Positions 28,702 to 58,245 of a stretch of DNA of 64,000 nucleotides are shown here, piece by piece. The notes beneath the pieces were generated by a model, which was not told where the DNA came from, made no database searches, and saw only the letters and a program-made list of their open reading frames with translations. Source of the DNA: a virus (taxonomy: Duplodnaviria > Heunggongvirae > Uroviricota > Caudoviricetes); the IMG/VR virus record IMGVR_UViG_3300033463_000040, positions 53,319-117,318 of that record. One strand, given 5' to 3'. Each line of letters starts with the position of its first letter. The first letter of the stretch is position 1. Both the position numbers and the translations under genes were made by a program.

Positions 28702-28737
28702 ATTATATTATAGAACTATTTTTCTTAAAAGTAAAGC
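28702..28737 (-). promoter_or_regulatory. conserved promoter GCTTTAC-N18-TATAAT
   Basis: One of 12 near-identical motif instances; ~95 nt upstream of CDS 28107-28607. Confidence 0.5.
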
Positions 28738-28751
28738 ATTTATTTTCTGTT

Positions 28752-29150
28752 TTAATCTGATAATACTTGTGCCATAAATATACCATGATTATGCATTAAA
28801 CCAACTACTGCGCTGTGATCATCTAAGCCTAAATTAAACTCATAGCCTTTTTCTTCTAACTTTTTAATCATATCGAGTTTAAATTCAGCAGTAGTACCGG
28901 GGTAATCATGTGGTTTACAAAATACTTTCTTTTTAATATTTGGAAATAGTTCATTAAGTAATTTTTCTACTTTTTCTTGACCCATAGCCCAACGACCTGT
29001 AATGAATACGATAGTAAACTTTTGACCAAGCTGTTCGATTACAGATATCATCTTTTCATTAGGTTCACCAAAATGATCATAATTAGGAATAGCAAATTTA
29101 TGCGTAACTACACCATCTATATCACAAAAAATTGCTGGTATTTTATCCAT
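28752..29150 (-). CDS. HAD-superfamily phosphatase
   Basis: FCDIDGVV (DxDG motif I), FITGR (motif II), GLDDHS (motif IV). Confidence 0.55.
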   Translation of the reverse strand: MDKIPAIFCDIDGVVTHKFAIPNYDHFGEPNEKMISVIEQLGQKFTIVFITGRWAMGQEKVEKLLNELFPNIKKKVFCKPHDYPGTTAEFKLDMIKKLEEKGYEFNLGLDDHSAVVGLMHNHGIFMAQVLSD

Positions 29151-29371
29151 TATCTACTACCTTTACCTTCTCTATTTTTTCTTGTATATTCTTTTTCTAA
29201 TTTATGAAAAATACTCAAATAAAATTCATATGCTTTTTCTGGGTCCATAAAAGATTTCTCTGTCCATTTATCGTTTTCAACATAATCAACATGCCATCTT
29301 CTATCTTCATGTTTAAACAATGGGGTTTTACATCTTTCCGCTGCATATGCATTTGCTTTAATATTTGCCAT
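29150..29371 (-). CDS. hypothetical protein
   Basis: ORF. Confidence 0.4.
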   Translation of the reverse strand: MANIKANAYAAERCKTPLFKHEDRRWHVDYVENDKWTEKSFMDPEKAYEFYLSIFHKLEKEYTRKNREGKGSR

Positions 29372-30014
29372 TTAATTTTCCTTTTTGTTTAATTGTAAGA
29401 TATTCTTTAGCACCATCTATAAAAACCGATATACCTTTCTTTTTCATATATAGATAACCTTTAAGCATATAATAACTACTCCTACTAAAGGTTCCAAATC
29501 TCATACACCATTTATTTGGTTCATATTCATAAGGATTAAAATTACCGCATGTTACCATTTCTGTAGGATGTCCAGCATGACCTATAACTTGAACACATTC
29601 TTTAAACCATAATGGATCATTTAGTCTATCTTCATGATACCATTGATTTTGGTCATGTTGACCTATATTATCCCAATTACCTTGATGTTTTTCATCAGCC
29701 CATAATTGAGAATTAAAATGTTCAGTAAATAAACCTCTACCATCCATCCAAGCTTTAGCAACTTCTATAGATGATAGTTTTCTCATATCTTGTCTTTTTG
29801 ATTCACTATACCAACAACCAGTATATGGATCAGTTATTATACCATTTTCATCACAGGAACCCAATACACATTCTTTAATTATATCAAAATAATCTTGAAG
29901 AGTCATATTACAAATAGGATTATTAACTTTATTATTAGATTTAATATCTTGAATAATAAGTTTTCTTGCTTCTTTTAATTCGGCAGGTGTAACACCAAAT
30001 TTGTAATTATGCAT
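29358..30014 (-). CDS. hypothetical protein (Cys/His/Trp-rich)
   Basis: ORF; no motif recognised. Confidence 0.45.
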   Translation of the reverse strand: MHNYKFGVTPAELKEARKLIIQDIKSNNKVNNPICNMTLQDYFDIIKECVLGSCDENGIITDPYTGCWYSESKRQDMRKLSSIEVAKAWMDGRGLFTEHFNSQLWADEKHQGNWDNIGQHDQNQWYHEDRLNDPLWFKECVQVIGHAGHPTEMVTCGNFNPYEYEPNKWCMRFGTFSRSSYYMLKGYLYMKKKGISVFIDGAKEYLTIKQKGKLNGKY

Positions 30015-30016
30015 AC

Positions 30017-30616
30017 CTATTTGTCCTCTTTTTTAGTCCTATTATGTATAGCTTGTAATATTCTACCATATTTTAATATACCAACTTCACCATTCATTAA
30101 TAACAAATCTTTTTTATGTTTTAAATTCTTTCTTTCCCAAATCGAATATTGATCACATTCAAATGGTAAACCTAATAAATATCCTAATAAATCTTCGGCT
30201 TTAATCTTAATAATATCAGTTACTTCTGTAGTATTAACGCTAAAACCAATAAATCCTGCTGCAATTTCATATAAATAAATATAAGCATATGCATGATCAT
30301 GCTTAGTTTCTGTATCTGATTTCCAGCTATCTATTTCTATTAATTCTAAATTATTTGTATTTATATTTATACCTATTTCTTCTGCTGTTTCTCTATAAGC
30401 TGTCATTTTAGGATCTTCACCCGCTAATACATGTCCAGAAGCAGTAGTATATAATTTATCTGCATCCGCTCTTACTTGGAAATATACATATCCTTCTCGA
30501 TCATAAAACCATACATGAGAAGTCTTATGCCAAATACCTTCTTTATGTACTACATCTCTATCATAAGGTTGAATAGTATTCAAATCTTTATCACAACAAT
30601 GTAACATTTCTGACAT
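30017..30616 (-). CDS. NUDIX hydrolase
   Basis: Nudix box GHVLAGEDPKMTAYRETAEEIGI. Confidence 0.65.
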   Translation of the reverse strand: MSEMLHCCDKDLNTIQPYDRDVVHKEGIWHKTSHVWFYDREGYVYFQVRADADKLYTTASGHVLAGEDPKMTAYRETAEEIGININTNNLELIEIDSWKSDTETKHDHAYAYIYLYEIAAGFIGFSVNTTEVTDIIKIKAEDLLGYLLGLPFECDQYSIWERKNLKHKKDLLLMNGEVGILKYGRILQAIHNRTKKEDK

Positions 30617-30619
30617 ATA

Positions 30620-31102
30620 TTACTCCTTTTGTAAATAGTCTGTAAACAACTTTCCATTTAAATGATCAGTTTCATGCTGTATAATTCTACTCGTTAACGG
30701 ATCTTTGATTAATTCTTCATGTAAATTGCCATCAACATCTTCCCATTTAACTCTTATCCTTTTATATCTCTCTACTCTTTCATGAATAGGTTTACCATCT
30801 TTTCCTAATACACTTAAACAACCTTCAAATTCATATTGCTTATCAAAAGATGTCCAAATAATTTCAGGGTTAATCATTTCGAAAAAATTTCCTTCTTTAT
30901 TTATATCTTTTACAACAATAACTCTTTTAGATATTCCTACTTGAGGTGCTGCTAAACCCGCACCATCTACACTTTTTACAGTTTGAACCATATCATAAAT
31001 TAAATTTTCAAGAGAAATATCAACCCTATCAGATTCTATTATTGGATCTGCAATTTTACGAAGAATTTCATTATCTTGATTAACTATTTCTCTTATTGCC
31101 AT
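30620..31102 (-). CDS. def: peptide deformylase
   Basis: All three PDF motifs: GAGLAAPQVG, EGCLS, HETDHLNG. Confidence 0.8.
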   Translation of the reverse strand: MAIREIVNQDNEILRKIADPIIESDRVDISLENLIYDMVQTVKSVDGAGLAAPQVGISKRVIVVKDINKEGNFFEMINPEIIWTSFDKQYEFEGCLSVLGKDGKPIHERVERYKRIRVKWEDVDGNLHEELIKDPLTSRIIQHETDHLNGKLFTDYLQKE

Positions 31103-31103
31103 A

Positions 31104-31782: not shown

Positions 31783-31849
31783 CTTTTCTCCTTTTTTATA
31801 TTAAAAATATAACATAAAAAAAGAAAAAAGTAAAATTAAAATTTCTAAT

Positions 31850-32179: not shown

Positions 32180-32182
32180 TAG

Positions 32183-32797: not shown

Positions 32798-32799
32798 AA

Positions 32800-33276
32800 C
32801 TATATCCTTTTAACTGAATTTATCATTTCATCAGTAGGTATTTGATAATTTTTTATATTAGGTACAAACCATCTTGTTACTTTTAAACCTTGATAAAATA
32901 CTGGATCATCACCAAATAACCCATATTCTTTTACAACCTCTTTACTAGCTCTTTTCCAAAAAGAAAGTGTTAAAATAGTATAATCAATTGTATCTTCTTT
33001 AGAATTTAATAATTGATATATTAATTGTTTAATATCTGTACATGTACTAATATCTAAATAAACCGGAAAAGCCGGAGTACTTGTTTCTTTGGTAATAATA
33101 AAATGCATATCTAACCAATCATTAATTGAAAAACTATATACTTTTTTATCAAATGGATTTTCAAAATTAAATTCTGGATTATTAGCGCATTCATCCATAC
33201 ATTGAAACAACCCACTTGTAGAATTAATCATACAAATGTTCTTAATTAAATCGTTTGGTAACTTTTGCTTTTTCAT
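32800..33276 (-). CDS. hypothetical protein
   Basis: ORF; conserved promoter immediately upstream. Confidence 0.45.
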   Translation of the reverse strand: MKKQKLPNDLIKNICMINSTSGLFQCMDECANNPEFNFENPFDKKVYSFSINDWLDMHFIITKETSTPAFPVYLDISTCTDIKQLIYQLLNSKEDTIDYTILTLSFWKRASKEVVKEYGLFGDDPVFYQGLKVTRWFVPNIKNYQIPTDEMINSVKRI

Positions 33277-33298
33277 TTTTTACCTCTTTTATTATATT

Positions 33299-33328
33299 AT
33301 TATAAACTATTTATTATAATAGTAAAGC
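33299..33328 (-). promoter_or_regulatory. conserved promoter GCTTTAC-N17-TATAAT
   Basis: Directly follows a terminator hairpin. Confidence 0.5.
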
Positions 33329-33356
33329 AATAAAAAAGGCCATCAAAATGACCTTT
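33329..33356 (-). terminator. rho-independent terminator (aaggccat/atgacctt plus T-run)
   Basis: Read directly. Confidence 0.5.
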
Positions 33357-33549: not shown

Positions 33550-33550
33550 T

Positions 33551-36792: not shown

Positions 36793-38994
36793 TTAATCCT
36801 TATTATAATAACTGTTTTTAATATCAATAATGGATAATGTATCTAAATCAATACCACCATTTTTAATACCTGTCATAAAACTAAACAAATCATTCATCAA
36901 ATTTGTTTGTTCAGACTTTACATTTTTAGCGGCAAAATATTTATCATTATCACCTTTATTAATATATTCTTTCATTCTACGCATGTCTTTCCAGAATTTA
37001 TAGAAAGGTGTTTTATATTTAATCATAAAATTATTCTGATCTACAAATACAAAACCTTCTATTTCTTCATGAAAATCTTTATCAAATGCTTCAATAAAAG
37101 ATTTTAATTCAGCAAAGGTATTAAATACTTTACACATTTCTTTTGGTTTACATCCTATTTGTTTAGCTAATTCCCATACATCATCATAAGATTTAAATGT
37201 ATCTGTAAAATCATTCTGTACTATATCTAATAATACAACTTTTTCATTGACATATTCAATAATATGCGGATCATTATGTGGATCTACACATTCAAATATA
37301 GCGGAACAATTATTAGCTTTTAAATATTCTTTTAATTTATCAATATTTGTATGTGTTTTTAATATACGCTCAAAGTTTTCTTTATATTCGCCTTGATTTG
37401 TAGATTTAGATGCAATAAATAATTGATCATTATATACAGATACAATACCTAAAAAGCCATTTTCTTTCAAATAAGCAGTTACTGGAAATACTAATGTCTT
37501 TTCTAAATTTCTCCATTGTGTAGATGGATGCTGTTCTGCTTCAAAAAATTTAGGATAAGATCTAGCAACTACTTGATTTGTCTTAGTATCAACAAATAAG
37601 CCTCTCGCTGTAGTAGTTAATTTATTCCATTTTTGGCTATAAAAAGCTTCTCTACTAAAGTTATAAGAAACTATACCATCACCCAAATCTTTTTTATGTA
37701 TTAAACTACTACTATCCAATTGTTGAATAATTGGATTATCATGTCTACTAGAAGGAATTTGTATATCTTTGTTATAAATTGTATTTGGTATTTCTATTGG
37801 TAATATATTCATTTTGTCTGTATAAGATAATTCAACTATTCTTAAATTACCACCAAATTCAACTTTACCTTCTAAGTTAATACTATAGCCGTCTGCACTT
37901 ATAATTGGATTATTAGTTACATTACGATGACCATGTACATTATAGCATTTGTAGTTTAATACTTGCATAGTCATTTTTTCATTAATACTACCAAAAGCTT
38001 TTTCTACTTCATCTAAATCATCATAATCACCTACTCCTTTAATACATTGTATTGCAGAAGTACGATAATCTAAAGGAAAGCTTAATCCACCATGAGTAAT
38101 AGAAAATCTATGATAAATACCCTGACAGTAAAAACTAACATTTACTGCTACTTTTAATCTTCTAGTAAACTTACTTAATTGATCTTTTAATTCACCAAAC
38201 TGTACTAAAGAATCTTTGAAATCTGGTGTCATTTTAGCAGCTTCACCATCTCTTACATAATTCTTAGCCCATATTTCATGATTACCTTGTAAAAATACAA
38301 AGTTTTCTTTTTCACAGTGGTCTAAACAAAACTGTAATACTTCTTTAGCTTGAATACCACGATCAAAATAATCACCAATAAAGATGTATAATTTTTGATC
38401 AGATTCTGGAGATGCTTCAAAGTATTTTCTTATTGGATCATAACAATTATGTATATCACCAAATATTACTACTTCTTTCCATTTATTACCATCTATTTTA
38501 TATACAAAATTATCTAAATTAGGAAATTCATTATAATCATAAATTTCATATTTATTTTGTAATGGTACTTTTATTTGATTATACATACGATCTAATACTT
38601 CATTTGGTACTTGTTTATAACTTTCCCGCATTAAATTTCTTTCTTTACAAGTATCTAAATCAACAGAAGAAAAATCTACAATAATCATACGATAATTATA
38701 TTCTTTACACAATTTTTTATAATCTTTTAAATAAGATTCTTTGGTATGTGTAGCATCTAATATAGTAAAATCACCATTCTTCATACGATCTTCTAATCTT
38801 TCTTTAAAGAAAGCCCAAACATGTTTATCATGTTTATTAGAAACAATATATTTACCTTTTATAGTTTGTTCTGGAGAAGAGTATAATAAACGAATAGCAT
38901 CGGTACTTAAAACGTATGCTTCTAAATCTCTTTCTTTAATCCAAGTAGATTTACCAGAACCTGGAATACCTCTTAAAACTAACAAGATCTTCAT
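36793..38994 (-). CDS. trifunctional RNA repair enzyme, Pnkp-like (kinase, metallophosphatase, ligase-like)
   Basis: N-terminal P-loop GIPGSGKST; central calcineurin-like motifs GDIHNCYD, GDYFDRG, GNHE; C-terminal third with ligase-like KENG. Confidence 0.55.
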   Translation of the reverse strand: MKILLVLRGIPGSGKSTWIKERDLEAYVLSTDAIRLLYSSPEQTIKGKYIVSNKHDKHVWAFFKERLEDRMKNGDFTILDATHTKESYLKDYKKLCKEYNYRMIIVDFSSVDLDTCKERNLMRESYKQVPNEVLDRMYNQIKVPLQNKYEIYDYNEFPNLDNFVYKIDGNKWKEVVIFGDIHNCYDPIRKYFEASPESDQKLYIFIGDYFDRGIQAKEVLQFCLDHCEKENFVFLQGNHEIWAKNYVRDGEAAKMTPDFKDSLVQFGELKDQLSKFTRRLKVAVNVSFYCQGIYHRFSITHGGLSFPLDYRTSAIQCIKGVGDYDDLDEVEKAFGSINEKMTMQVLNYKCYNVHGHRNVTNNPIISADGYSINLEGKVEFGGNLRIVELSYTDKMNILPIEIPNTIYNKDIQIPSSRHDNPIIQQLDSSSLIHKKDLGDGIVSYNFSREAFYSQKWNKLTTTARGLFVDTKTNQVVARSYPKFFEAEQHPSTQWRNLEKTLVFPVTAYLKENGFLGIVSVYNDQLFIASKSTNQGEYKENFERILKTHTNIDKLKEYLKANNCSAIFECVDPHNDPHIIEYVNEKVVLLDIVQNDFTDTFKSYDDVWELAKQIGCKPKEMCKVFNTFAELKSFIEAFDKDFHEEIEGFVFVDQNNFMIKYKTPFYKFWKDMRRMKEYINKGDNDKYFAAKNVKSEQTNLMNDLFSFMTGIKNGGIDLDTLSIIDIKNSYYNKD

Positions 38995-39041
38995 TTATTA
39001 CCTCTTTATATTTATATTATATAATTTTTTATAATAATTGT

Positions 39042-39078
39042 AAAACAAAAAATCACCAAATATAAAATCTGGTGATTT
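39042..39078 (-). terminator. rho-independent terminator (aatcacca/tggtgatt plus TTTTTTGTTTT) in the Pnkp leader
   Basis: Read directly; lies between the promoter at 39131-39167 and the Pnkp start. Confidence 0.5.
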
Positions 39079-39130
39079 AGAGTGTATTCAGAGTTTAAAA
39101 AATGTATAAAAACATGAAGTTTTTTAATAC

Positions 39131-39167
39131 ATTATATAATATAGTACATTTTTTACAAAAGTAAAGC
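39131..39167 (-). promoter_or_regulatory. conserved promoter GCTTTAC-N17-19-TATAAT
   Basis: Motif instance; a transcript from here meets the terminator after ~80 nt. Confidence 0.5.
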
Positions 39168-44819: not shown

Positions 44820-44849
44820 ATTATAATAAAAATTCTAACAATGTAAAGC
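44820..44849 (-). promoter_or_regulatory. conserved promoter GCTTTAC-N17-TATAAT
   Basis: Motif instance. Confidence 0.5.
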
Positions 44850-44856: not shown

Positions 44857-45363
44857 TTATTTATGTTCAATGCTAATATTCATTAAAGATGAAAAATTTA
44901 CCTCTTTTAAATTTGTACAATTTTTAAACATATATGCCATGTTAGAATCATTTTCTTTATAATATCCTTCCATTCTTAATAAAATTTCAATACGATCTAA
45001 TTTGTCTTTTGGAAGATTATACATAAAAGATATTTCCCAATTCAATTTATCCGCAGACAATTCTTTTTTAATCATTTCAATAAGATTATTATAGCCTAAG
45101 CCTAATTTTTCTTCTATAAAACTAAACCATTCATGAATACGTGTATCTATCATTTTTAAAACAAAAGGATAATTACCTAAAGTAGCAACAAAATTAAATG
45201 TAATTATACTAGTTTTAGGATCATGTGTAATTTTATCTAATTCATATTTATATGGAATTGGAGTAGTAGGATTATACCACATATCATACAAAGCAGCAAC
45301 AAACTTACTTGTATTTAATAATGGAAAATTTATTCTTAAAAATGTATTACCTTCACTGGCCAT
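44857..45363 (-). CDS. hypothetical protein
   Basis: ORF; a promoter variant (GTTTTAC-N17-TATAAT at 45370-45399) sits so close that the mRNA would be nearly leaderless. Confidence 0.4.
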   Translation of the reverse strand: MASEGNTFLRINFPLLNTSKFVAALYDMWYNPTTPIPYKYELDKITHDPKTSIITFNFVATLGNYPFVLKMIDTRIHEWFSFIEEKLGLGYNNLIEMIKKELSADKLNWEISFMYNLPKDKLDRIEILLRMEGYYKENDSNMAYMFKNCTNLKEVNFSSLMNISIEHK

Positions 45364-45396
45364 ATTTATATTATAACAAATAAATATTAAAAGTAA

Positions 45397-45430
45397 AACA
45401 AAAAAAAAGCTTCTTCAAAAAGAAGAAGCT
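45397..45430 (-). terminator. rho-independent terminator (gcttcttc/gaagaagc plus T-run)
   Basis: Perfect 8-10 bp stem; A12 on plus, so T12 on minus. Confidence 0.6.
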
Positions 45431-45435
45431 TAAAG

Positions 45436-45700
45436 TATAAAAAATAATTACAATTGATGTTAGATAAATGAATTCAATTCCACTAAATAGGAGCGGATTT
45501 TAATATCTATCCAGATATTTAATCCTAAGGAGGTTACCCCTATAGCGATCATTGTTTAACTTTATATATTTTTGCTAGCTTAATATATAAAGCATTCATT
45601 AAATTTATGACTAAAAACAAACTATACAAAGTACAACCGTTTATAGACACATCAGAAAAATGACGAAAACAATAACTTACCGTTTCAACACTTTACTTAT
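45436..45700 (-). ncRNA. candidate ~270-nt sRNA transcribed from the promoter at 45706-45735 to the terminator at 45397-45430
   Basis: Promoter and terminator bracket a segment with no ORF over 30 aa. It contains an extended imperfect hairpin GGATTAAATATC..GATATTAAAATCC. Confidence 0.3.
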
Positions 45701-45705: not shown

Positions 45706-45735
45706 ATAATAACGTAATTTTTTAAAAAGTAAAGC
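45706..45735 (-). promoter_or_regulatory. conserved promoter GCTTTAC-N17-TATTAT/TATAAT
   Basis: Motif instance with no annotated gene downstream. Confidence 0.45.
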
Positions 45736-45741
45736 AAAAAA

Positions 45742-45957
45742 TTAAAATTTTTTCCGTTTCATAAATCGTTGTAAAATATAGTAAATCATTGGTCCTTCTT
45801 TCCATTCTGATGATACTACATAACCAACTATATTCTTTTTAAATAATCTAGAAGCTGGTTCATATAACTTACAATTAAGTTTTTCTGCTTTTTTCATTAA
45901 TCTATCATGACGACAATCTTTAAAATAATCGCATATCCCTAAAATAATTCTTTTCAT
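45742..45957 (-). CDS. hypothetical protein
   Basis: ORF. Confidence 0.4.
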   Translation of the reverse strand: MKRIILGICDYFKDCRHDRLMKKAEKLNCKLYEPASRLFKKNIVGYVVSSEWKEGPMIYYILQRFMKRKKF

Positions 45958-45960
45958 AAT

Positions 45961-46638
45961 TTACTCCTTATTTTTTTCAAATAATTCTTCACAATATTCT
46001 ACTAAATCATCATAACCTGATTGATTTAAAGATTCCAAATACTTAGTTATACCTGAAAGCATAGCATCATTTTCCATTGTTTGCTTTATTACATCTACAA
46101 CTTCTTGTTTAGGTGTATTTTTTGTTATGATTTTATCATCACATAATAAACATAATGAAATAACTCCATTAAAAGCTGTCTTTACTTTATTTAAATTAAA
46201 GAATTTTTTTGTATTTTTTTCAAAATTAATTGAATTATAATCTATATTTTGTTTGTCTTCATTCAGTAAAGAAAGCATATACCAAATAATTATACTTGAT
46301 AAACTTTCAATTCTACGTACTATAAAAGCTTTTTTGTTTATTTCTCTATATAAGACTAAACTTTCTAAATAAGATAACCAAATATTAATAATTAATTTAT
46401 CCCCATCTTTTTCTGCTGAAAAAAGAGTATCTTCATTACCTTTACCTAAACGTAAAGCTAATACAAAATGTACATCTTCTTTAATTCCCCAATTAATTCT
46501 ATATGCATTACCATTTAGCATTTCTTCATATGCTTGCTTATAATATTCAGATTCGATATCACGTATTAGATGCCTATGTAAAAGTTGAAATAATATACCA
46601 ACTTTTAATGTATTAGTAATCTCTTTTTCAAATTTCAT
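45961..46638 (-). CDS. hypothetical protein
   Basis: ORF; conserved promoter upstream (46664-46694). Confidence 0.45.
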   Translation of the reverse strand: MKFEKEITNTLKVGILFQLLHRHLIRDIESEYYKQAYEEMLNGNAYRINWGIKEDVHFVLALRLGKGNEDTLFSAEKDGDKLIINIWLSYLESLVLYREINKKAFIVRRIESLSSIIIWYMLSLLNEDKQNIDYNSINFEKNTKKFFNLNKVKTAFNGVISLCLLCDDKIITKNTPKQEVVDVIKQTMENDAMLSGITKYLESLNQSGYDDLVEYCEELFEKNKE

Positions 46639-46792
46639 AAAATATCCTTTATTTTACATTTTTTATTATAAGTTAAATATTTTATAATGTAAAGCCATAA
46701 AATTTATGTTCTATATAATAAGAAGTAGCAATGACTGCGACTTCATAATTTCCATGCGATAATATCAAGTGGCGGAACTAAAAGAGTAAAAA

Positions 46793-48039: not shown

Positions 48040-49233
48040 TTACTTAAACATTTTAGCAGCATAATCTTTACCTGCTTCGGTTAATCTATATAATCCTTTG
48101 GCATTTTTGACATTTTCTATATAACTACAATTTTCTCTATGCCGAATATTATGTAATTTTGTACTAATTTGTTTTCTGGTTAATACTTTAGCTGAATTTT
48201 TAGCTCCATATAAATTATAATAAGCAGTAGTTAATTCATTTAATGTTAATTTATCTTTATTATAATCTTTTAAAGCAATCCAAAACACACGCAAAAATTC
48301 CATACTTCTATATATATTTATAGTATAAGAAGACAATTTTAATTTTTTTGCTTCACTTTCACTTACTGTAAACAAATTTTCTATCATTGGAATTTCCTCT
48401 TTATTTAAAGGTTTGTCTATTAATAAAGTATATTTATTTTTATCTATTCTTTTAATTTCTACACCATTTTCTTTTAATTCATTATTATTTATATATTTAT
48501 ACAAACTTGCCCAAATCAAATGACTAGGTTTAATTTTCTTTTTTTTACCATACAAATTATGGTAAGCAATGGTTATTTCATTTAAATTTAATATACTTTT
48601 ATTATAATGTATTTTTGCAATTTTAAACACATTAATCATATCATTATAATTTTCTAAACTTTTTTTATATGAAGGTGAATTTTTACCACACAATACTTTT
48701 TTAACAATTTTATGTGTTTTGCCTTGAGCTTTAAACTCTGTATAAATATCTGAAACAATTTGACGAACTCGTTCTCTTGTAATTCCAAATTTATCTGCAA
48801 CAGCTTGATATGTATAAATACCTTTACTATACATATCTCTAATTGCCTGTTTTTGTTTTCTTTTTTCTAAAGGTGGTATATATTGAGGTTGTTTTAAACC
48901 TAATTTATGTGAAATATTAGTAAAGCGTGAAAATTCTATACCCGCTTTAATAGCTTTTTCTTTAACTGATAACTCTGGATAATTTTTATATGTTTCTATA
49001 ACTCTATTAATAATGGCTTGTTTAAATTTAGCTTTAGTTTCTTTTATTTGTAATCTATTTAAAGTTTTTAATTGTTTAAGTTCTTTCGTGATTACACTAG
49101 GTTTGCCTTTTTTATCATTAGAAAAAGCTTTTAATACATCTTCTCTTTTTAAATTTAAAGAATTACAAATCCAATCAAGAGAAAAATCTTTTTTTAATAA
49201 TTGTGTAACAGCTTTTTTTAATTGCTCATCCAT
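48040..49233 (-). CDS. putative sigma-factor-like / HTH transcription regulator
   Basis: ADKFGITRERVRQIVSDI resembles the sigma70 region-4 HTH; conserved promoter 45 nt upstream. Confidence 0.45.
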   Translation of the reverse strand: MDEQLKKAVTQLLKKDFSLDWICNSLNLKREDVLKAFSNDKKGKPSVITKELKQLKTLNRLQIKETKAKFKQAIINRVIETYKNYPELSVKEKAIKAGIEFSRFTNISHKLGLKQPQYIPPLEKRKQKQAIRDMYSKGIYTYQAVADKFGITRERVRQIVSDIYTEFKAQGKTHKIVKKVLCGKNSPSYKKSLENYNDMINVFKIAKIHYNKSILNLNEITIAYHNLYGKKKKIKPSHLIWASLYKYINNNELKENGVEIKRIDKNKYTLLIDKPLNKEEIPMIENLFTVSESEAKKLKLSSYTINIYRSMEFLRVFWIALKDYNKDKLTLNELTTAYYNLYGAKNSAKVLTRKQISTKLHNIRHRENCSYIENVKNAKGLYRLTEAGKDYAAKMFK

Positions 49234-49257: not shown

Positions 49258-49288
49258 AATATACAATAATCGTTTTAAAAAGTAAAGC
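49258..49288 (-). promoter_or_regulatory. conserved promoter GCTTTAC plus an AT-rich -10
   Basis: Motif instance. Confidence 0.45.
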
Positions 49289-49325
49289 AAAAAATTTAAT
49301 TCTTTGTAACTAAGTTCTATTATAA

Positions 49326-50584: not shown

Positions 50585-50917
50585 TTATATATTTTCTATA
50601 CAAATACCTACTACACCAAATTTACCTTGTGCTTCTTTATCATAAAACTGTTCCATAATCTTAATCGCATTTTCAACAGTTCCCAATCCAGCATATTTAG
50701 GATCAATATATCTAAACAATTCTTTAAAAGTAGGTGCAGTAAAAAAGCCTTTTACTTGTACTGTATGAAAATTATCACCATTTTGAAAAGTAATAGTGTC
50801 TCCAATTTCAATTTTACGTCTTTTAGCATCATATAAACGTAATTCAATAGTTTTTTTACCTTCTTTAATCAAATTAAAATAAGGTTGTTTTAATGTCATA
50901 TTATGATTTGTTGCCAT
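50585..50917 (-). CDS. ASCH/PUA-like domain protein
   Basis: Small beta-rich ORF with ELRLYD...GDTITF pattern. Confidence 0.35.
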   Translation of the reverse strand: MATNHNMTLKQPYFNLIKEGKKTIELRLYDAKRRKIEIGDTITFQNGDNFHTVQVKGFFTAPTFKELFRYIDPKYAGLGTVENAIKIMEQFYDKEAQGKFGVVGICIENI

Positions 50918-50946: not shown

Positions 50947-50980
50947 ATTATAATAGTATATAAAATATTAAAAGTAAAGC
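50947..50980 (-). promoter_or_regulatory. conserved promoter GCTTTAC-N18-TATTATAAT
   Basis: Motif instance. Confidence 0.5.
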
Positions 50981-52625: not shown

Positions 52626-52627
52626 AA

Positions 52628-53023
52628 TTATCTCCTACCATTTCTTTTTAATAATTCAGCTCTAGTAATAACTTCAAGATTATTTAAATCGTTATTAAAC
52701 TTATCCCCATCTATATGATAAACTACTTCATTGCTTTTTAATTTTCTACCTAATTCCTTTTCCATAAGCCATTTACTATAACTTACTCTGCGCTGGTGCA
52801 TATATACTTTACCATTACGGCTTCTTACAGGTACTTTCTCTTCACTACTACATACCATACCATCTCGACCTTTTCTGGGCTTACCAATAATACGTCTAGC
52901 TTCAATATCTTTTTTAGTAAAACTAGTAGCATTAGCCCCTTGCCAACCAAAAAGGCCTTTATTCCAAGTTTTATGTCCTTTAATAAATCTTCCAGAATTA
53001 GACATTTTATTTATTAACCCCAA
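52628..53023 (-). CDS. HNH endonuclease (HNH_3-like)
   Basis: VVYHIDGDKFNNDLNNLEVITRAE. Confidence 0.5.
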   Translation of the reverse strand: MGLINKMSNSGRFIKGHKTWNKGLFGWQGANATSFTKKDIEARRIIGKPRKGRDGMVCSSEEKVPVRSRNGKVYMHQRRVSYSKWLMEKELGRKLKSNEVVYHIDGDKFNNDLNNLEVITRAELLKRNGRR

Positions 53024-53032: not shown

Positions 53033-53063
53033 ATTATAATATATATTTATTAAATAGTAAAGT
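53033..53063 (-). promoter_or_regulatory. conserved promoter (variant ACTTTAC)-N18-TATAAT
   Basis: Motif instance. Confidence 0.45.
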
Positions 53064-53107
53064 CAAAAGCCTAAATATTTCTATCTAAGCTTTTTGACTT
53101 GATTATA

Positions 53108-53704
53108 TTACTCGTTTGGTCTTAATTCTTCTAAAGTTTTATTGTTGTAATAAAATAATTGATAACCATTTAAAGAATTAGTTTTATCTGCAGGTGCTAA
53201 TTTACCGGCAATTTTTGATACACTTTCTGGTTTATCGAAACCTGGAAATTGAACTTTATTCTTTGGCATTACAATACCAGTACATGCTGGTAATTGACAA
53301 TTCATATAATAAATCTTAGCACCAATTGGAATATTCAACATAGCAAACGTAGTATTATTACGGCGTTTTTTAGTAGAATTAGGTGTAATTTCTTTACTTC
53401 CAGGTAAAGATGTTCTAGCAAAACTTAAAACTTCATCTAATTTATCTGCACTAAAAAATTCTGTTTCACGACCAGTTCTGGTATAATGTCTATATGCAGC
53501 AAAAGCTTTATGTAAAGCTTTTTCATTTTTTTCAGCATCTTGGCATTCAAATAAAGCAACAAATTCAAAATCTTCTAACACACTAGTATTTGATAAAGTA
53601 GCTTTTCTACCATTTATACTATTAGTTATACCAATTTTAATAAATCCATATAAGCATGGATTTGTTGCAATATATAAATATCTTTTTTTACTTTTATTTT
53701 CCAT
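53108..53704 (-). CDS. GIY-YIG-like (T5orf172/MUG113-type) putative endonuclease
   Basis: YLYIATNPCLYGFIKIGITNS...R, a GIY...YIG-like spacing. Confidence 0.35.
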   Translation of the reverse strand: MENKSKKRYLYIATNPCLYGFIKIGITNSINGRKATLSNTSVLEDFEFVALFECQDAEKNEKALHKAFAAYRHYTRTGRETEFFSADKLDEVLSFARTSLPGSKEITPNSTKKRRNNTTFAMLNIPIGAKIYYMNCQLPACTGIVMPKNKVQFPGFDKPESVSKIAGKLAPADKTNSLNGYQLFYYNNKTLEELRPNE

Positions 53705-53718
53705 TTTTAATCTTTTTA

Positions 53719-54054
53719 TTAAATTAGTTTATATACACCTCTTTTAACTGCTTTTAATAACTTCTTTTGAGCCATTCTATAAACAATTAAACCCATGTAA
53801 TTTCGGTTTATCAACTTTTCTTTACTATGGTCTTTGGTATATTTATTATAATAACCCAACACTATATCAACAACAGTCAATTCAGTATCTTTATCTTTAA
53901 ACAATTCCAATACGCGCTTTTCATGTATCGTTAAGTTCAAAGTACTTGTAGTAGATTTTATGCCTAACTTCTTTAAAGTTTCAGTATCTACTGTTTCTTT
54001 ATTAAAAATTACATTTTCATTATTCATTTCCATGTCCTTTTTACTATTACTCAT
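53719..54054 (-). CDS. hypothetical protein
   Basis: ORF; conserved promoter upstream (54070-54100). Confidence 0.4.
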   Translation of the reverse strand: MSNSKKDMEMNNENVIFNKETVDTETLKKLGIKSTTSTLNLTIHEKRVLELFKDKDTELTVVDIVLGYYNKYTKDHSKEKLINRNYMGLIVYRMAQKKLLKAVKRGVYKLI

Positions 54055-54177
54055 TATTGAGTTATTACAATCTTACATTAATTTTTATTAAAAGTAAAGC
54101 AAAAAATTCAAAAAATTAAAAAACTTAAACATTCTAAGTCTAAGTCTTTGATTTTACTGTATATTTTACTATACCAA

Positions 54178-54540: not shown

Positions 54541-54569
54541 ATTTAAATCCTTTTTATTTACTATATGAA

Positions 54570-54929: not shown

Positions 54930-54964
54930 ATTAAATTTCTTTTACTATATCAATTAAATAGTTA

Positions 54965-55651: not shown

Positions 55652-55977
55652 TTCCTTTTATAGTTATTATATTATATATAAGAAAAAAATTAATAAAAAT
55701 TATTCTAAATATGTATTAACTATCCCAAACTTATAGTTCTATTAATTATAGAAACAACCCTAATCTGGAATGTGTAGATGAATACCTATAACCAACAATA
55801 CTCGGTCTAATCCCTTATCGCAATATTAGTCCCGATTATCATAAATAAAGATAGGTATTTTTTTATTACTATACAAATAAAACAGTATATCAATTCATTT
55901 TATACGCTAACAATAACAAAAATTAAATACAAGTATAAAATACAGATATACATACATATATATAAGAGATAAATAAA

Positions 55978-57519
55978 ATGTCAATTTTAAAAACAATCGA
56001 AAAACAAGGTTTGACAGAAGCTAAACGCAATGTCAAAATGAACCGCGGTATCGCACACGCAGCTCAATTCTTAGCAGAATCTAACTTAGGTGTTCGTTGC
56101 CCAAATTTGGTTAAAGGTTTAGAATCTGATTCCAAAGAAGCTAAATATGCAGCAGCTACATTAGTCCAAATCATGGAAAATACAGCTGACTACGTTATGA
56201 AAACAGACGGCAAAGATATCTTACATGAAGATGCTATCAACGCTACAGCTAACACAATGTTAACACCAGGCGTCTCAACTTTGACTCCACAAGTATTGGA
56301 TATCGTTAATATATTTTATCCAATGATGGTTGCAAATTATATTGCAGACATTCAAGCTATGGATCGTCAATCTGGCCAAATCTTTACAATTAAGACACGT
56401 TACAGCCAGACAGCAGCAGACGTAGCAGAAGGTGATATTGTATTCGAAAAAGCAACTGACGGTACATATTCTACTGAAGGTGTTATTTCTTATACAGCAG
56501 CTACAACAGCAGCAGGTGCAGCTACATTGAATCCAACAGCAGCATTAGAAGCAAACACAACAGTAAAAGTACGTGCAGGTTCATTTATCGTTACAGTTGA
56601 TGGTAAAGAAGTTGCTCGTGATTACGGTTTAGACACATCTTTGGATGGTGTTGGTGGTACATATGTAGTTATCGGTAAGGGCGTATCTGGTACAGTTGAT
56701 GCACAAACAGGTGTTGCAACTTTGAAATTGGATACAGCTGTTATTGCTGATGGTACAGTATTGAATGCTACAGCTTCTTATGATACAGAACACGATGAAG
56801 ATTTGATTCGTAAGATTCAATTCGATATTCCTAACCAACCAATCTTGGCTAAGGAACACCCATTGATGAGTTCATATTCTGTTGCTGCAGGTTTAGTCAT
56901 GAACGCTCACTTAGCAATTGATACAGATGAATTGATCACAAATCAATTAGCTGGTACAATTCGTTGGGAACGTGACTTGGCATTAGTTAAAGCAGTATCT
57001 GATGCTGCAGTTGCTAATCCATCTTTGACTTTTGACTGCTCAGCTAACGGTACTAACTTGACATTGGCACAACGTTATAGTTCATATACAACAACTATTT
57101 CTTCTGCTCGTGGTATTATCCAAGAAACAGCAGGTCGTGGAACTGTTGACTTTATCATCTGTTCTGCTACTCAAGGTTTGCCAATTATCGAACAAATCGA
57201 AGGCTTTAAAGCTGCTCCAGAAGCTAAGAAACCAATTGGTCCATATTTAGCAGGTACATTGCGTGATGGTACAATCAACGTAATTGCAGTTCCTTATACA
57301 AAAACATTGGCAGCTGATCAAGTTGTCTTTGGTTTCAAGGGCTTCCAATTAGGTGATTCTGCAATCATCTTAGCTGAATGGGTTGCTTTGTATTTGACAC
57401 CAACATTCCAAGCTCCAAACTTACGTAACCACAAAGGTTGCTTGAGTTTCTACGACTTATTTGTAAATAAGCCAGAATACTTGGTTAAAGGTGCTATTTC
57501 TAACTTCAACGTTGCTTAA
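55978..57519 (+). CDS. putative major capsid protein (513 aa)
   Basis: Plus-strand gene; codon usage strongly skewed to GGT/GCT/ACA/GTT-type codons, unlike its neighbours; Ala/Thr/Gly/Val-rich; followed by a strong terminator. Confidence 0.45.
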   Translation: MSILKTIEKQGLTEAKRNVKMNRGIAHAAQFLAESNLGVRCPNLVKGLESDSKEAKYAAATLVQIMENTADYVMKTDGKDILHEDAINATANTMLTPGVSTLTPQVLDIVNIFYPMMVANYIADIQAMDRQSGQIFTIKTRYSQTAADVAEGDIVFEKATDGTYSTEGVISYTAATTAAGAATLNPTAALEANTTVKVRAGSFIVTVDGKEVARDYGLDTSLDGVGGTYVVIGKGVSGTVDAQTGVATLKLDTAVIADGTVLNATASYDTEHDEDLIRKIQFDIPNQPILAKEHPLMSSYSVAAGLVMNAHLAIDTDELITNQLAGTIRWERDLALVKAVSDAAVANPSLTFDCSANGTNLTLAQRYSSYTTTISSARGIIQETAGRGTVDFIICSATQGLPIIEQIEGFKAAPEAKKPIGPYLAGTLRDGTINVIAVPYTKTLAADQVVFGFKGFQLGDSAIILAEWVALYLTPTFQAPNLRNHKGCLSFYDLFVNKPEYLVKGAISNFNVA

Positions 57520-57546
57520 TTAAGTAATTAGTTAGAAAACCTATCA

Positions 57547-57578
57547 AACCCCTGTCTTCGGATGGGGGTTTCTTATTA
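57547..57578 (+). terminator. rho-independent terminator: 8-bp stem with UUCG tetraloop, then UUUCUUAUU
   Basis: ccccugUC-uucg-GAuggggg then a U-tract, read directly. Confidence 0.65.
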
Positions 57579-57611
57579 CTATTTAAAAGGTATAGTTAAT
57601 GAAAGTAAATA

Positions 57612-57640
57612 AAAACCCCTTCTCTATAAAAAGAAGGGAT
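57612..57640 (-). terminator. minus-strand terminator (cccttct/agaaggg plus T5) that stops antisense read-through into the capsid gene
   Basis: Hairpin with the A-run on plus, so a T-run on minus. Confidence 0.45.
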
Positions 57641-57995
57641 TAACCTTAAAAACATCACGTATGTTAGGAGTCTAATGTTATTAAGAATGTTAGGAATATA
57701 TATAGAACAGGAGGAGAGAGAGAATTGGAAAGGAAGGACCCGTTACTATATATACTCCTAGCGGAGATTATATACAAGTATTATTACAAAGGGGAACTCT
57801 GACAACATTTACTTGTATATATGGCGTTCAACAGAAATATATTACTTATTTTGCTTGAAAGGACTTTCGCAGAAACCTATATATTTCCATCTATGTTTTT
57901 GAACATATTTATATTATACGCATTCCTATATAAAAGTAAATGATTAATTTTCCAATTCTGATAAAAAAGATATCCTATACAAATCATATAGGATA

Positions 57996-58200
57996 TTAGG
58001 TGTGTTTCGCTTGCCAATAACCTCTGTATTTGGTTAATAAGCTATGTATACTATAAAGTGGAAATATATAAATGTAAATAAAAAACCTCCCCTTATAAGG
58101 AAAGTTCTTCTTGGACAAAGCGAAGAAAAGGGAAGGTTTCAAGAGCGTAACAATGGAAAGTCTATACTTAAAATGTCGAATAAAAGTACAAACCATTAAC
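57996..58200 (-). CDS. possible small hydrophobic protein (doubtful)
   Basis: Low-complexity ORF; gains some credit because the promoter at 58216-58245 and the terminator at 57612-57640 bracket it. Confidence 0.2.
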
Positions 58201-58215
58201 ATGATTACAAAATAT

Positions 58216-58245
58216 ATTATAGCATTAAATAAATAAAAGTAAAGC
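58216..58245 (-). promoter_or_regulatory. conserved promoter GCTTTAC-N17-TATAAT
   Basis: Motif instance immediately after a terminator. Confidence 0.5.

What the first reader, a model, noticed from the sequence alone, without database searches (positions are those of the whole stretch)
28702..58245. A 12-copy conserved promoter: GCTTTAC, 17-18 nt spacer, TATAAT, all on the minus strand of the early/middle region
Near-identical motifs (plus-strand form aaaagtaaagca) sit about 28731, 33322, 39161, 44843, 45393 (variant GTTTTAC), 45729, 46688, 49282, 50974, 53057 (variant ACTTTAC), 54094 and 58239. Each is followed on the minus strand by an AT spacer of 17-18 nt and a TATAAT-like hexamer. Each lies 30-100 nt upstream of a minus-strand start codon (UDG-like, 32800 gene, Pnkp leader, 43803 gene, 44857 gene, 45961 gene, sigma-like gene, ASCH gene, HNH, 53719 gene) or an ORF-less region. 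Several sit immediately after a terminator T-run, giving terminator-promoter cassettes. I did not notice the motif in the structural half (1-21 kb). This points to a temporally distinct promoter class, probably host-sigma70-dependent early/middle, with a phage-specific -35-like element.
Basis: seen in the sequence. Interest (0 to 1): 0.65.

Follow-up and report, generated by a model that had tools for sequence, protein, structure and literature searches.

The report
Early promoter family of a rumen phage
The repeated GCTTTAC...TATAAT motif is a real family of strong bacterial-type promoters that switch on the non-structural genes of an uncultured giant rumen phage; this is how large phages such as T4 are already known to work.

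Summary
All 12 listed sites exist. A weight matrix built from them finds 14 strong sites, all on the minus strand. They share a T-rich stretch, G(C/T)TTTAC(T/A)TTT, a 16-17 bp spacer and TATAAT. This is a housekeeping-sigma promoter with an extended -35 that carries T, not G, at -33. Sites are intergenic, point the same way as the genes, usually lie 21-32 nt from a start codon, and half follow a terminator hairpin. The motif is conserved in about 55 related metagenomic loci: 74 sites on the early-gene strand against 5 on the other. One relative is a 245 kb contig binned as a rumen Bacilli MAG. It also precedes the LRR and tail-fibre genes, tRNA clusters and all three plus-strand genes, and is probably the late class. 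So a temporally distinct promoter class is supported computationally. Host-sigma dependence and timing are inferred. The closest analogues are T4 early promoters (GTTTAC), PeSL cassettes and the Kayvirus early/late system. It is a new member of a known kind. The "sigma-like" gene shows only a region-4 helix-turn-helix. In passing I found a conserved, covarying noncoding RNA of about 400 nt at 58380-58790 with no Rfam match.

The parts
1667..1697 (-). It follows terminator hairpin 1724-1747 and precedes the metallophosphatase gene 474-1499.
   Evidence: Matrix score 18.9 bits; anatomy and upstream hairpin of -13.6 kcal/mol; Pfam Metallophos.
28707..28737 (-). Class I promoter upstream of the UDG-like gene 28107-28607. 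Its spacer and -10 also contain the class II motif (AAATAGTTCTATAAT), so it is a combined promoter.
   Evidence: Pfam UDG.
33299..33328 (-). Class I promoter directly after terminator hairpin 33335-33356. The -10 ends 22 nt before the start codon of 32800-33276.
39016..39046 (-). It follows terminator 39050-39078, and its -10 ends 21 nt before the Pnkp-RNA ligase gene 36793-38994.
   Evidence: Matrix score 17.7 bits.
39138..39167 (-). Class I promoter driving a short ORF-less transcript of about 85 nt that ends at terminator 39050-39078.
44820..44849 (-). Class I promoter; the -10 ends 24 nt before the start of 43803-44795.
45370..45399 (-). Class I promoter (GTTTTAC variant) directly after terminator 45407-45431. 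The first ATG of 44857-45363 lies 6 nt after the -10, so the mRNA may be leaderless.
45706..45735 (-). Class I promoter driving an ORF-less transcript of about 290 nt that ends at terminator 45407-45431. The transcript body is conserved in relatives L001, L061 and L101.
46665..46695 (-). Class I promoter for 45961-46638, back to back with a plus-strand class II motif at 46708-46713.
49258..49288 (-). Class I promoter for the 397-aa protein with a sigma region-4-like helix-turn-helix (48040-49233). It is divergent from the plus-strand class II motif at 49314-49319.
50950..50980 (-). Class I promoter for 50585-50917 (PHROG 'RNA-binding protein').
53033..53063 (-). Class I promoter (ACTTTAC variant) after hairpin 53065-53094. 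It precedes the HNH endonuclease gene 52628-53023, and an orthologous promoter sits in L001 at 6195.
54070..54100 (-). Class I promoter with the weakest -10 (TAAGAT), after hairpin 54119-54149. It precedes 53719-54054.
58216..58245 (-). Class I promoter after hairpin 58256-58286. It drives an ORF-less transcript in the 57.5-59 kb noncoding region.
22005..22034 (-). TTTACA-N16-TATAAT promoter without G at -37, upstream of tRNA-Met (21854-21930). It stands for the weaker relatives of the family; others have -35 elements at about 31836, 52247, 57942, 58080 and 59019.
45736..46695 (-). Two-ORF cassette bounded by two direct copies of the class I promoter. Relatives L001 and L061 have a single promoter at this junction and no cassette.
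55736..55741 (+). Class II motif (GTTCTA, extended form aGTTCTAtaaaat) about 240 nt upstream of the gp23-like capsid gene 55978-57519. Other copies: plus strand 46708 and 49314; minus strand 2085, 8796, 13968, 20529, 21700, 22599, 25271, 28716 and 58789.

Best explanation
These are strong bipartite promoters read by an RNA polymerase holoenzyme that carries a housekeeping (group 1, sigma70/sigmaA-type) sigma factor, most likely the host's.

Sigma region 4 would bind the -35 element TTTAC(T/A). Region 2 would bind and melt TATAAT 16-17 bp downstream. Transcription would start at a purine about 7 nt after the -10, giving very short leaders that hold little beyond the Shine-Dalgarno sequence.

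Extra conserved positions make the sites a recognisable phage-specific subclass: a T-rich stretch at -43 to -38, G at -37, C or T at -36, T rather than G at -33, and TTT at -29 to -27. They presumably add affinity or selectivity so the phage competes for host polymerase at the start of infection.

The promoters head transcription units for auxiliary enzymes, homing endonucleases, ORFans and a few small noncoding RNAs. About half sit immediately behind an intrinsic terminator, so each unit is insulated as a terminator-promoter cassette.

Late functions (capsid, LRR and tail-fibre genes) and the tRNA clusters instead carry a single-block GTTCTAtaaaat element without a -35. A phage-encoded factor probably reads it.

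Shown: motif, geometry, placement, orientation, conservation, and partition against the second motif. Inferred: promoter activity, host-sigma dependence and early timing.
For: Enrichment and strand bias. There are 14 sites of at least 17.7 bits on the minus strand, and the best plus-strand score is 12.7.

Geometry: the spacer is 17 bp in 84 of 108 clade-wide sites, with 21 at 16 bp and 3 at 18 bp. The search admitted only 16-18 bp and required A at -11 and T at -7, so only the preference for 17 bp is informative. A purine sits at +1 in 78%.

Placement: 17 of 20 minus-strand TTTAC-type sites are intergenic although intergenic DNA is 11% of the window. The -10 lies 21-32 nt from the start codon at most sites.

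Conservation: in 500 kb flanking the capsid gene in 57 loci from relatives, there are 74 sites on the early-gene strand against 5 on the capsid strand. With a seed that ignores -37 and -36, G at -37 occurs in 72% and C or T at -36 in 88% of 149 sites, against 4 of 50 background sites with GC. Orthologous promoters occur in L001.

Downstream genes are non-structural: UDG, Pnkp-RNA ligase, M16 peptidase, SPFH, NUDIX, deformylase, YkuD, SNase, GNAT, HNH, T5orf172 and a metallophosphatase.

The contrasting class II motif sits upstream of the capsid gene in 23 relatives' upstream sequences, that is all with at least about 200 nt available except L064 and L077. It also sits upstream of LRR and tail-fibre genes and tRNA clusters. 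GTTCTA is intergenic in 14 of 35 occurrences, p = 1e-5.

Precedent: T4 early promoters have -35 GTTTAC with T at -33 plus extra consensus (PMC1524935; PMC2988021). Kayvirus has 58 early sigma70-type promoters and 12 late long -10 promoters without a -35, some of them combined (PMC7698491).
Against: There are no transcript data, so start sites, strength and timing are unproven.

The host is unknown. The only hint is that a 245 kb relative contig was binned as a rumen 'Bacilli' MAG. It therefore cannot be shown that the host sigma prefers or accepts TTTAC.

The canonical G at position 3 of the -35 is almost never used (7 TTGAC against 149 TTTAC sites). This could mean a non-host or modified recognition factor.

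Only 64 kb of a genome of about 150-245 kb was examined, so a phage RNA polymerase or a group-1-like sigma elsewhere is not excluded.

A generic sigma70 scan is uninformative in this AT-rich DNA (163 hits against 157 expected), so weak family members cannot be told from chance.
Confidence: 0.8

Rival explanations
1. The sites are middle-type promoters that need a phage-encoded factor. That factor could be a MotA-like activator, a sigma-appropriation system, or a phage sigma or region-4-like protein such as the product of 48040-49233. It would read the G(C/T)TTTAC block, so the sites would not be recognised by unmodified host holoenzyme.
For: The core tTGCTTTA is letter for letter the T4 MotA-box consensus (a/t)(a/t)(a/t)TGCTTtA (PMC1524935). 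Conservation extends outside the canonical hexamer to G at -37 and TTT at -29 to -27. TTGAC is avoided. The window encodes a protein with a sigma region-4 helix-turn-helix behind one of these promoters (Pfam 2.1e-6).
Against: The box lies 19 bp from the -10, not the 11-13 bp of MotA-dependent promoters. Each site already has a good -35 at the optimal 17 bp spacing, which MotA promoters lack.

No MotA, AsiA or Alt domain was found in the roughly 60 ORFs scanned. The region-4 protein has no detectable region 2, so it could not direct -10 melting. Its own gene sits behind the same promoter type, so something else must fire these promoters first.
Confidence: 0.12
2. The conserved block serves chiefly as a recombination linker. 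Promoter-plus-stem-loop repeats of this kind (PeSL-like mobile regulatory cassettes) let gene cassettes be inserted, deleted and swapped between related phages. Promoter activity would be a co-function.
For: Window 45736-46695 holds two ORFs between two direct copies of the promoter. L001 and L061 carry one promoter and no cassette, with homology running into both flanks.

Seven of the 14 sites pair with a stem-loop. The region is mosaic and rich in ORFans relative to L001. In places the promoters are the only sequence shared between otherwise unrelated segments (for example L061 811-835 matches window 49273-49297). PeSL precedent: PMC2839356.
Against: There is only one clean example. Other breakpoints, at 50980 and 53063-54100, do not fall neatly inside the repeat. 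The repeats are short (about 30-45 bp) with variable spacers. The stem-loops are ordinary terminators rather than the G/C-tract stems of PeSLs. This role adds to the promoter role rather than replacing it.
Confidence: 0.3
3. The matches are a chance or compositional artefact of very AT-rich intergenic DNA, or binding sites for a non-transcriptional protein involved in replication or packaging.
For: The window has 25-30% G+C. A generic sigma70 consensus scan finds no more hits than shuffles do.
Against: The extended motif is far above shuffle expectation. It occurs on one strand only and has a fixed 16-17 bp spacing to a TATAAT. It sits 21-32 nt from start codons and is conserved in position and sequence across a diverged clade. 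G and C, the rare bases in this genome, are its most conserved positions.
Confidence: 0.02

Closest known systems
Bacteriophage T4 early promoters (Pe) and their counterparts in T4-like phages
   Same: Many near-identical host-sigma-type promoters head early, largely ORFan-rich transcription units. The -35 is GTTTAC-like with T rather than G at -33. A conserved G lies just upstream of the hexamer, and there is consensus beyond the canonical elements. The -10 is TATAAT. Promoters also precede tRNA genes (PMC1524935; PMC2988021).
   Different: Here the G lies one base further upstream (G-N-TTTAC). The region upstream of the -35 is T-rich rather than an A-rich UP element. There is no TGn extended -10: T is 54% at -15 and G only 24% at -14. 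The spacer carries TTT at -29 to -27. The phage is only distantly related; its capsid matches Pfam Gp23, but the nearest cultured relatives share 34% identity. The host is probably a low-GC rumen bacterium. No Alt-like enzyme was seen in the window.
Two-class promoter system of Staphylococcus Kayvirus (Herelleviridae) phage vB_SauM-515A1
   Same: Dozens of early sigma70-type promoters (-35, 17 bp, -10) control most genes. A small set of late promoters consists of a long -10 block without a -35 (TGTTATATTA there, aGTTCTAtaaaat here) in front of morphogenesis genes. A few promoters combine both types, as 28707-28737 does here (PMC7698491).
   Different: The Kayvirus early -35 is the canonical TTGACW with a TRTGN extension. 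Here the -35 is TTTACW with G at -37 and no TG extension. The Kayvirus classes were mapped by RNA-seq; here they are inferred.
PeSL (promoter-early stem-loop) mobile regulatory cassettes of coliphages RB49 and phi1
   Same: Repeated early-promoter-plus-stem-loop modules lie between ORFans in plastic genome regions. Here a gene cassette flanked by two copies in one genome corresponds to a single copy in a relative (PMC2839356).
   Different: The stem-loops here are plain AT-rich intrinsic terminators upstream of the -35 and are present at only half the sites. There is one clean cassette example, and there is no evidence of mini-circles.
T4 MotA-dependent middle promoters
   Same: The sequence tttTGCTTTA equals the MotA-box consensus, and a TATAAT-like -10 lies downstream.
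   Different: The box is 19 bp from the -10, not 11-13 bp. A functional-looking -35 is present. No MotA or AsiA homologue was found in the window.

Membership tests
Housekeeping sigma (sigma70/sigmaA) -35/-10 promoter | -10 hexamer TATAAT-like, with A at -11 and T at -7 | tested here: met
   Exact TATAAT in 9 of 14 window sites, at least 5/6 in 13 of 14, and A at -11 and T at -7 in all 14. In the clade set of 108 sites A -11 and T -7 were search criteria, so they are not independent evidence there.
Housekeeping sigma (sigma70/sigmaA) -35/-10 promoter | -35 hexamer resembling TTGACA | tested here: met
   TTTAC(T/A) matches 4-5 of 6 positions. The systematic departure is T for G at position 3: 149 TTTAC against 7 TTGAC sites.
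Housekeeping sigma (sigma70/sigmaA) -35/-10 promoter | Spacer of 17 +/- 1 bp | tested here: met
   Window sites have 16 or 17 bp. In the clade, 17 bp in 84, 16 bp in 21 and 18 bp in 3 of 108; the search admitted only 16-18 bp, so the informative result is the preference for 17.
Housekeeping sigma (sigma70/sigmaA) -35/-10 promoter | Intergenic, oriented with the downstream gene, at leader distance from the start codon | tested here: met
   17 of 20 minus-strand sites are intergenic, against 0 of 8 on the plus strand. The -10 ends 21-32 nt before the start codon at most sites.
Housekeeping sigma (sigma70/sigmaA) -35/-10 promoter | Transcription starts 6-9 nt downstream and depends on the host primary sigma | not testable with these tools
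   No transcript data, and the host is uncultured and unknown. The only hint is a relative's contig binned as a Bacilli MAG.
T4-type early promoter | -35 region GTTTAC with T at -33 and a conserved G upstream | tested here: inconclusive
   T at -33 was fixed by the seed (TTTAC[AT]) in every site collected. The evidence for the preference is that TTGAC sites are rare (7 against 149). G is conserved in 72% of sites but at -37, one base further upstream than in T4.
T4-type early promoter | A-rich UP-like element at -40 to -44 and a TGn extended -10 | tested here: not met
   Positions -43 to -38 are T-rich (57-61% T). G at -14 is only 24%.
T4-type early promoter | Immediate-early expression, stimulated by an injected Alt ADP-ribosyltransferase | not testable with these tools
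   No ADP-ribosyltransferase domain in the roughly 60 ORFs scanned. Most of the genome lies outside the window.
T4 MotA-dependent middle promoter | MotA box TGCTTtA centred at -30, 11-13 bp upstream of the -10, replacing the -35 | tested here: not met
   TGCTTTA ends 19 bp from the -10, and a canonical-spacing -35 is present.
T4 MotA-dependent middle promoter | Phage encodes MotA and AsiA | tested here: inconclusive
   No such Pfam hit among the ORFs scanned. Small ORFs and the rest of the genome were not scanned.
PeSL mobile regulatory cassette | Early promoter joined to a stem-loop, repeated in plastic ORFan-rich regions | tested here: met
   7 of 14 sites have an adjacent hairpin of -10.5 to -13.6 kcal/mol plus a T-run. 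The region is mosaic relative to L001.
PeSL mobile regulatory cassette | Indels between related genomes bounded by the repeats | tested here: inconclusive
   One clean case: 45736-46695 against a single promoter in L001 and L061. Other junctions are not clean.
PeSL mobile regulatory cassette | Excised mini-circles formed by recombination between the repeats | not testable with these tools
   Needs inverse PCR on infected cells.

The most novel reading that the evidence does not exclude
The positions outside the canonical hexamers are G at -37, T at -33 and TTT at -29 to -27, held across a clade whose capsids have diverged to 66% identity, together with near-total avoidance of TTGAC. Under this reading they are not just a strong host promoter but a private recognition code. 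The code would be read by host polymerase after a phage-directed change (an injected modifier like T4 Alt), or by a phage protein that mimics sigma region 4. The 397-aa product of 48040-49233 is such a candidate: it has a region-4 helix-turn-helix plus two repeated C-terminal domains, no detectable region 2, and sits behind one of these promoters. It would bind the G(C/T)TTTAC box to boost or later shut off early transcription. That would be a new takeover mechanism in a phage of a probably Gram-positive, uncultured host, and would have converged on the same -35 variant as T4.
Probability: 0.12. Interest if true: 0.6.

Novelty: new member of a known kind. Interest (0 to 1): 0.33.

Why it matters
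The result gives a usable regulatory map for an uncultured clade of large rumen phages (contigs of 157-245 kb). One motif marks early or auxiliary transcription units and small-RNA genes, and a second marks late genes. This helps annotate ORFan-rich regions, define operons and find noncoding RNAs in metagenomic phage genomes.

The systematic use of TTTAC instead of TTGAC, as in T4, adds a second and distant example. It may help explain why some virulent phages favour this -35 variant.

The promoters could also serve as compact strong parts for low-GC hosts.

None of this changes current understanding of phage transcription.

Tried and rejected
- **Megablast of 12 kb against GenBank phages:** no match, so no annotated close relative exists.
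- **Generic sigma70 scan:** 163 hits against 157 expected. It is useless in this AT-rich DNA; only the extended motif stands out.
- **Exact 18-mer TTTTTGCTTTACTTTTAA in IMG/VR:** 51 loci, each with one hit. On reading 33 nt downstream of each hit, almost none had a TATAAT-like -10. Many were identical copies of a few unrelated sequences, so these are chance matches, not relatives.
- **Relatives sought through three other window proteins:** the Pnkp-RNA ligase, the M16 peptidase and an LRR protein gave none. Only the capsid protein retrieved relatives.
- **Exact-protein lookup of the capsid:** not on record.
- **The 'sigma-like' gene:** Pfam gives only Sigma70_r4 (2.1e-6). PHROG is marginal, PDB hits have E of at least 0.2, and tblastn against phages finds nothing. 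I rejected calling it a sigma factor.
- **MotA-box reading:** rejected on spacing.
- **Rfam:** only tRNAs reach the gathering scores. Permissive searches of 57.4-59.1 kb and 22.3-28.2 kb gave no convincing family for the noncoding regions.
- **Simple deletion at 53063-54100:** I looked for one between two promoter copies relative to L001. L001 instead has a different ORF there, so this is a replacement, not a clean repeat-bounded indel.

Full report
**1. The observation**

The window is very AT-rich, with 24-39% G+C per 2 kb and about 25-28% across 28-55 kb. Almost all genes are on the minus strand.

Chance does not explain them:
- GCTTTAC occurs 30 times against 7.8 +/- 2.6 in dinucleotide-preserving shuffles.
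- GCTTTAC-N16-19-TATAAT occurs 5 times, all on the minus strand, against 0.07 expected.
- GCTTTAC followed by a -10 matching at least 4 of 6 gives 11 minus-strand and 1 plus-strand site, against 1.2 expected for both strands together.

A weight matrix built from the 12 sites separates 14 minus-strand sites scoring at least 17.7 bits from everything else. The best plus-strand score is 12.7. Leave-one-out scores are 8-30 bits. The two added members are 39046 (GTTTTACA-N17-TATAAT, directly upstream of the Pnkp-RNA ligase gene) and 1697 (GCTTTAT-N17-TATAAT).

**2. Anatomy**

Read against the bacterial consensus, the -35 hexamer is TTTAC(T/A), and the G and C of GCTTTAC sit at -37 and -36. The spacer to the -10 is 16 or 17 bp at all 14 sites. 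The -10 is exact TATAAT in 9 of 14 and at least 5/6 in 13 of 14.

The -10 ends 21-32 nt before a start codon preceded by a Shine-Dalgarno sequence at most sites. Three sites (39167, 45735, 58245) face ORF-less stretches that end at terminators.

Seven of the 14 sites (1697, 33328, 39046, 45399, 53063, 54100, 58245) lie directly behind a hairpin of -10.5 to -13.6 kcal/mol followed by a T-run. The T-run upstream of the -35 is often the terminator tail.

I then relaxed the seed to TTTAC[AT]-N16-18-(at least 5/6 TATAAT). This gives 20 minus-strand sites, 17 of them in the 11% of the window that is intergenic. It gives 8 plus-strand sites, none intergenic. So the GCTTTAC sites are the strong core of a somewhat larger family. 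The wider family includes the promoter of a tRNA cluster (22034) and several sites in the ORF-less 57.5-59 kb region.

**3. What the phage is**

There is no nucleotide match in GenBank phages. The isolated plus-strand gene 55978-57519 encodes a Gp23-type major capsid protein. Its nearest cultured relatives are Xanthomonas phage phiXF1 and Pseudomonas phage QdP_Psa3, at 34% identity.

Capsid-based searches retrieved relatives from three collections:
- 9 IMG/VR loci;
- 47 metagenome loci;
- one GTDB contig of 245 kb, labelled 'MAG: Bacilli bacterium RGIG8164, water buffalo rumen'.

Related contigs reach 157-245 kb, so this is a clade of large uncultured phages. The rumen origin rests on that single record title, because no habitat information was returned for the other samples. 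Host assignment from a binned contig is only a hint. The strong Shine-Dalgarno sequences and an L,D-transpeptidase gene are consistent with a walled low-GC host.

**4. Conservation**

All retrieved loci are oriented with the capsid gene on the plus strand. In their 500 kb, GCTTTAC-N17-TATAAT-like sites number 74 on the opposite (early-gene) strand and 5 on the capsid strand.

To avoid circularity I collected sites with a seed that ignores -37 and -36. Among 149 unique early-strand sites, G is at -37 in 72% and C or T at -36 in 54% and 34%. Positions -43 to -38 are 57-61% T, and the spacer is 17 bp in 104. Only 4 of 50 background sites on the other strand have GC.

Downstream of the hexamer, TTT at -29 to -27 is 69-86% T. 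There is no TGn extension. A is at -6 in 74%, and a purine is at +1 in 78%.

The canonical TTGAC -35 is almost unused: 7 sites against 149 for TTTAC. TTGAC is only about four times rarer as a bare word.

Orthologous promoters can be matched between the window and L001, for example 53063 with L001 6195, and 46695 and 45735 with L001 1684.

**5. A second promoter class supplies the temporal contrast**

Intergenic regions that lack the first motif share A-rich DNA followed by GTTCTA(T/A)(A/T)AA. This motif has no -35 partner. It lies 20-45 nt from start codons in several cases, which leaves no room for a separate -10, so the block itself must act as the -10-type element.

In the window it precedes:
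- four of the BspA-type LRR and tail-fibre genes of 1-20 kb (2085, 8796, 13968, 20529; Pfam);
- tRNA clusters and small genes (21700, 22599, 25271);
- all three plus-strand genes (46708, 49314, 55736);
- a conserved noncoding RNA (58789).

A GTTCTA or GTTCTT motif, usually a single copy, lies 110-300 nt upstream of the capsid gene in 23 of the relatives' distinct upstream sequences. That is all with at least about 200 nt available except L064 and L077. GTTCTA is intergenic in 14 of 35 occurrences, p = 1e-5.

The promoter at 28737 carries both motifs (GCTTTAC ... AGTTCTATAAT).

Class I heads enzymes and ORFans: UDG, a NUDIX-deformylase-YkuD operon, SNase, Pnkp-RNA ligase, M16 peptidase, SPFH, GNAT, HNH, T5orf172, and a metallophosphatase behind the 1697 site.

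This partition is the best available evidence that class I is a temporally distinct, pre-late class.

**6. Mechanism**

The geometry is that of a housekeeping-sigma holoenzyme: -35 and -10 elements 17 bp apart, A at -11 and T at -7, and a purine start. The most economical reading is that host RNA polymerase uses these promoters from the start of infection. The conserved extra positions would raise affinity or selectivity. These steps are inferred, because there are no transcript data.

Established precedent is close.
- T4 early promoters are described as containing excellent matches to all host elements plus additional consensus (PMC2988021). Their -35 is GTTTAC (-36 to -31) with T at -33 and a conserved G upstream (PMC1524935).
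- Kayvirus vB_SauM-515A1 has 58 early sigma70-type promoters and 12 late promoters made of a long -10 box (TGTTATATTA) without a -35. Some of its promoters combine both types (PMC7698491).

**7. Rivals**

- **MotA-type middle promoter.** tTGCTTTA is identical to the T4 MotA-box consensus. But the box sits 19 bp from the -10, not 11-13 bp, and a proper -35 is present. No MotA, AsiA or Alt domain appeared in about 60 scanned ORFs.
- **Phage sigma.** The 'sigma-like' gene 48040-49233 has only a region-4 helix-turn-helix (Pfam 2.1e-6). No region 2 is detectable, PDB similarity is weak, and there is no homologue in cultured phages. It cannot be called a sigma, though a region-4-like DNA binder behind one of these promoters is an intriguing candidate regulator.
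- **Recombination linker (PeSL-like).** Window 45736-46695 holds two ORFs between two direct promoter copies. L001 and L061 have a single promoter whose upstream flank matches the window upstream of 46695. Its downstream flank matches the transcript of 45735. This is the topology described for PeSL cassettes (PMC2839356). I found only this one clean case, so I treat it as a probable side role.
- **Chance.** Excluded.

**8. Novelty and verdict**

It is a new member of a well-known kind: early promoter families of large virulent phages.

Its distinctive details are G at -37, T-rich rather than A-rich upstream DNA, TTT at -29 to -27, no TGn, and near-exclusive TTTAC. Interest is modest.

The most interesting by-product is outside the brief. 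It is a noncoding block of about 400 nt at 58380-58790 on the minus strand, starting just after a class II motif.
- It is conserved at 71-82% nucleotide identity in at least 11 relatives.
- Its predicted fold has 71 pairs, 19 with compensatory changes, against 7.3 +/- 1.5 in shuffles (0 of 500) and 1-8 in slid controls.
- It has no Rfam match.

Noticed in passing
window 58380-58790, minus strand (alignment A1): A noncoding block of about 400 nt is conserved at 71-82% nucleotide identity in at least 11 relatives and begins just after a class II GTTCTA motif. Its consensus fold has 71 pairs, 19 of them with compensatory changes, against 7.3 +/- 1.5 in shuffles (0 of 500). This includes a long-range closing helix in which 7 of 10 pairs covary. 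There is no Rfam match even at E <= 1, so it is a candidate new large structured phage RNA.
   Followed up: partly
window, GTTCTA at minus 2085, 8796, 13968, 20529, 21700, 22599, 25271, 28716, 58789 and plus 46708, 49314, 55736; upstream of the capsid gene in L001-L006, L061, L065-L068, L071, L075, L078-L080, L083, L086, L092, L094, L097, L101, L105: A second conserved promoter-like motif, A-rich DNA followed by GTTCTAtaaaat with no -35, precedes the capsid gene, LRR and tail-fibre genes, tRNA clusters and all plus-strand genes. It is probably the late promoter class read by a phage factor, comparable to the Kayvirus TGTTATATTA and T4 TATAAATA late promoters.
   Followed up: partly
window 55742-55977 (plus strand) and the same region in relatives: The capsid gene has a leader of roughly 110-300 nt. 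A conserved box, (C)TATTCTGGA, lies 20-90 nt downstream of the class II motif in most relatives. It may be a processing or regulatory element.
   Followed up: no
window 45400-45700 (minus); also 39050-39130 and 57520-58250: Class I promoters drive ORF-less units that end at terminators. The unit of about 290 nt from P45735 has a core conserved in L001, L061 and L101. The region 57.5-59 kb holds five promoter-like sites and no ORF of 50 aa or more apart from two doubtful TTG-start ORFs (57996-58247 minus, 58626-58805 plus). These look like phage small-RNA genes.
   Followed up: partly
window 57920-57960 and 58345-58385 (minus); relatives L063, L065, L066, L072, L085, L095: A recurring upstream element, (A)ATTGGAAAT, lies about 8-12 nt upstream of the -35 of the promoters in the noncoding region behind the capsid gene. 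It may be an activator or UP-like site specific to these units.
   Followed up: no
window 27460-27761, minus strand: There are sub-threshold tmRNA-like matches: alpha_tmRNA at 36.4 bits (E 6.5e-8, gathering score 50) and permuted tmRNA at 22.9 bits. They lie in GC-richer noncoding DNA beside the tRNA clusters. An extra tRNA-like match sits at 22389-22458 (31.5 bits). ARAGORN called no tmRNA.
   Followed up: no
window 2126-19000, minus strand: This is an array of eight paralogous BspA-type leucine-rich-repeat proteins (Pfam LRR_5) of 396-858 aa, plus one protein like a tail fibre. It is probably a diversified set of receptor-binding proteins rather than a standard structural module.
   Followed up: partly
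window 48040-49233, minus strand: A 397-aa protein has a sigma region-4-type helix-turn-helix (aa 126-161) and two repeated C-terminal segments (about aa 216-250 and 332-366). It has no detectable sigma region 2 and no homologue in cultured phages. It may bind -35-like DNA.
   Followed up: partly
window 45363-45375, minus strand: The first ATG of ORF 44857-45363 lies 6 nt after the -10 of promoter 45399, so the mRNA may be leaderless. The L001 homologue aligns from residue 10, so the start cannot be far downstream.
   Followed up: no
window 25361-25450: ARAGORN calls a tRNA-Ser with anticodon ACT, which is unusual, next to a tRNA-Ser(TGA). Rfam finds 15 tRNAs against ARAGORN's 14, the extra one at 25555-25625.
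   Followed up: no
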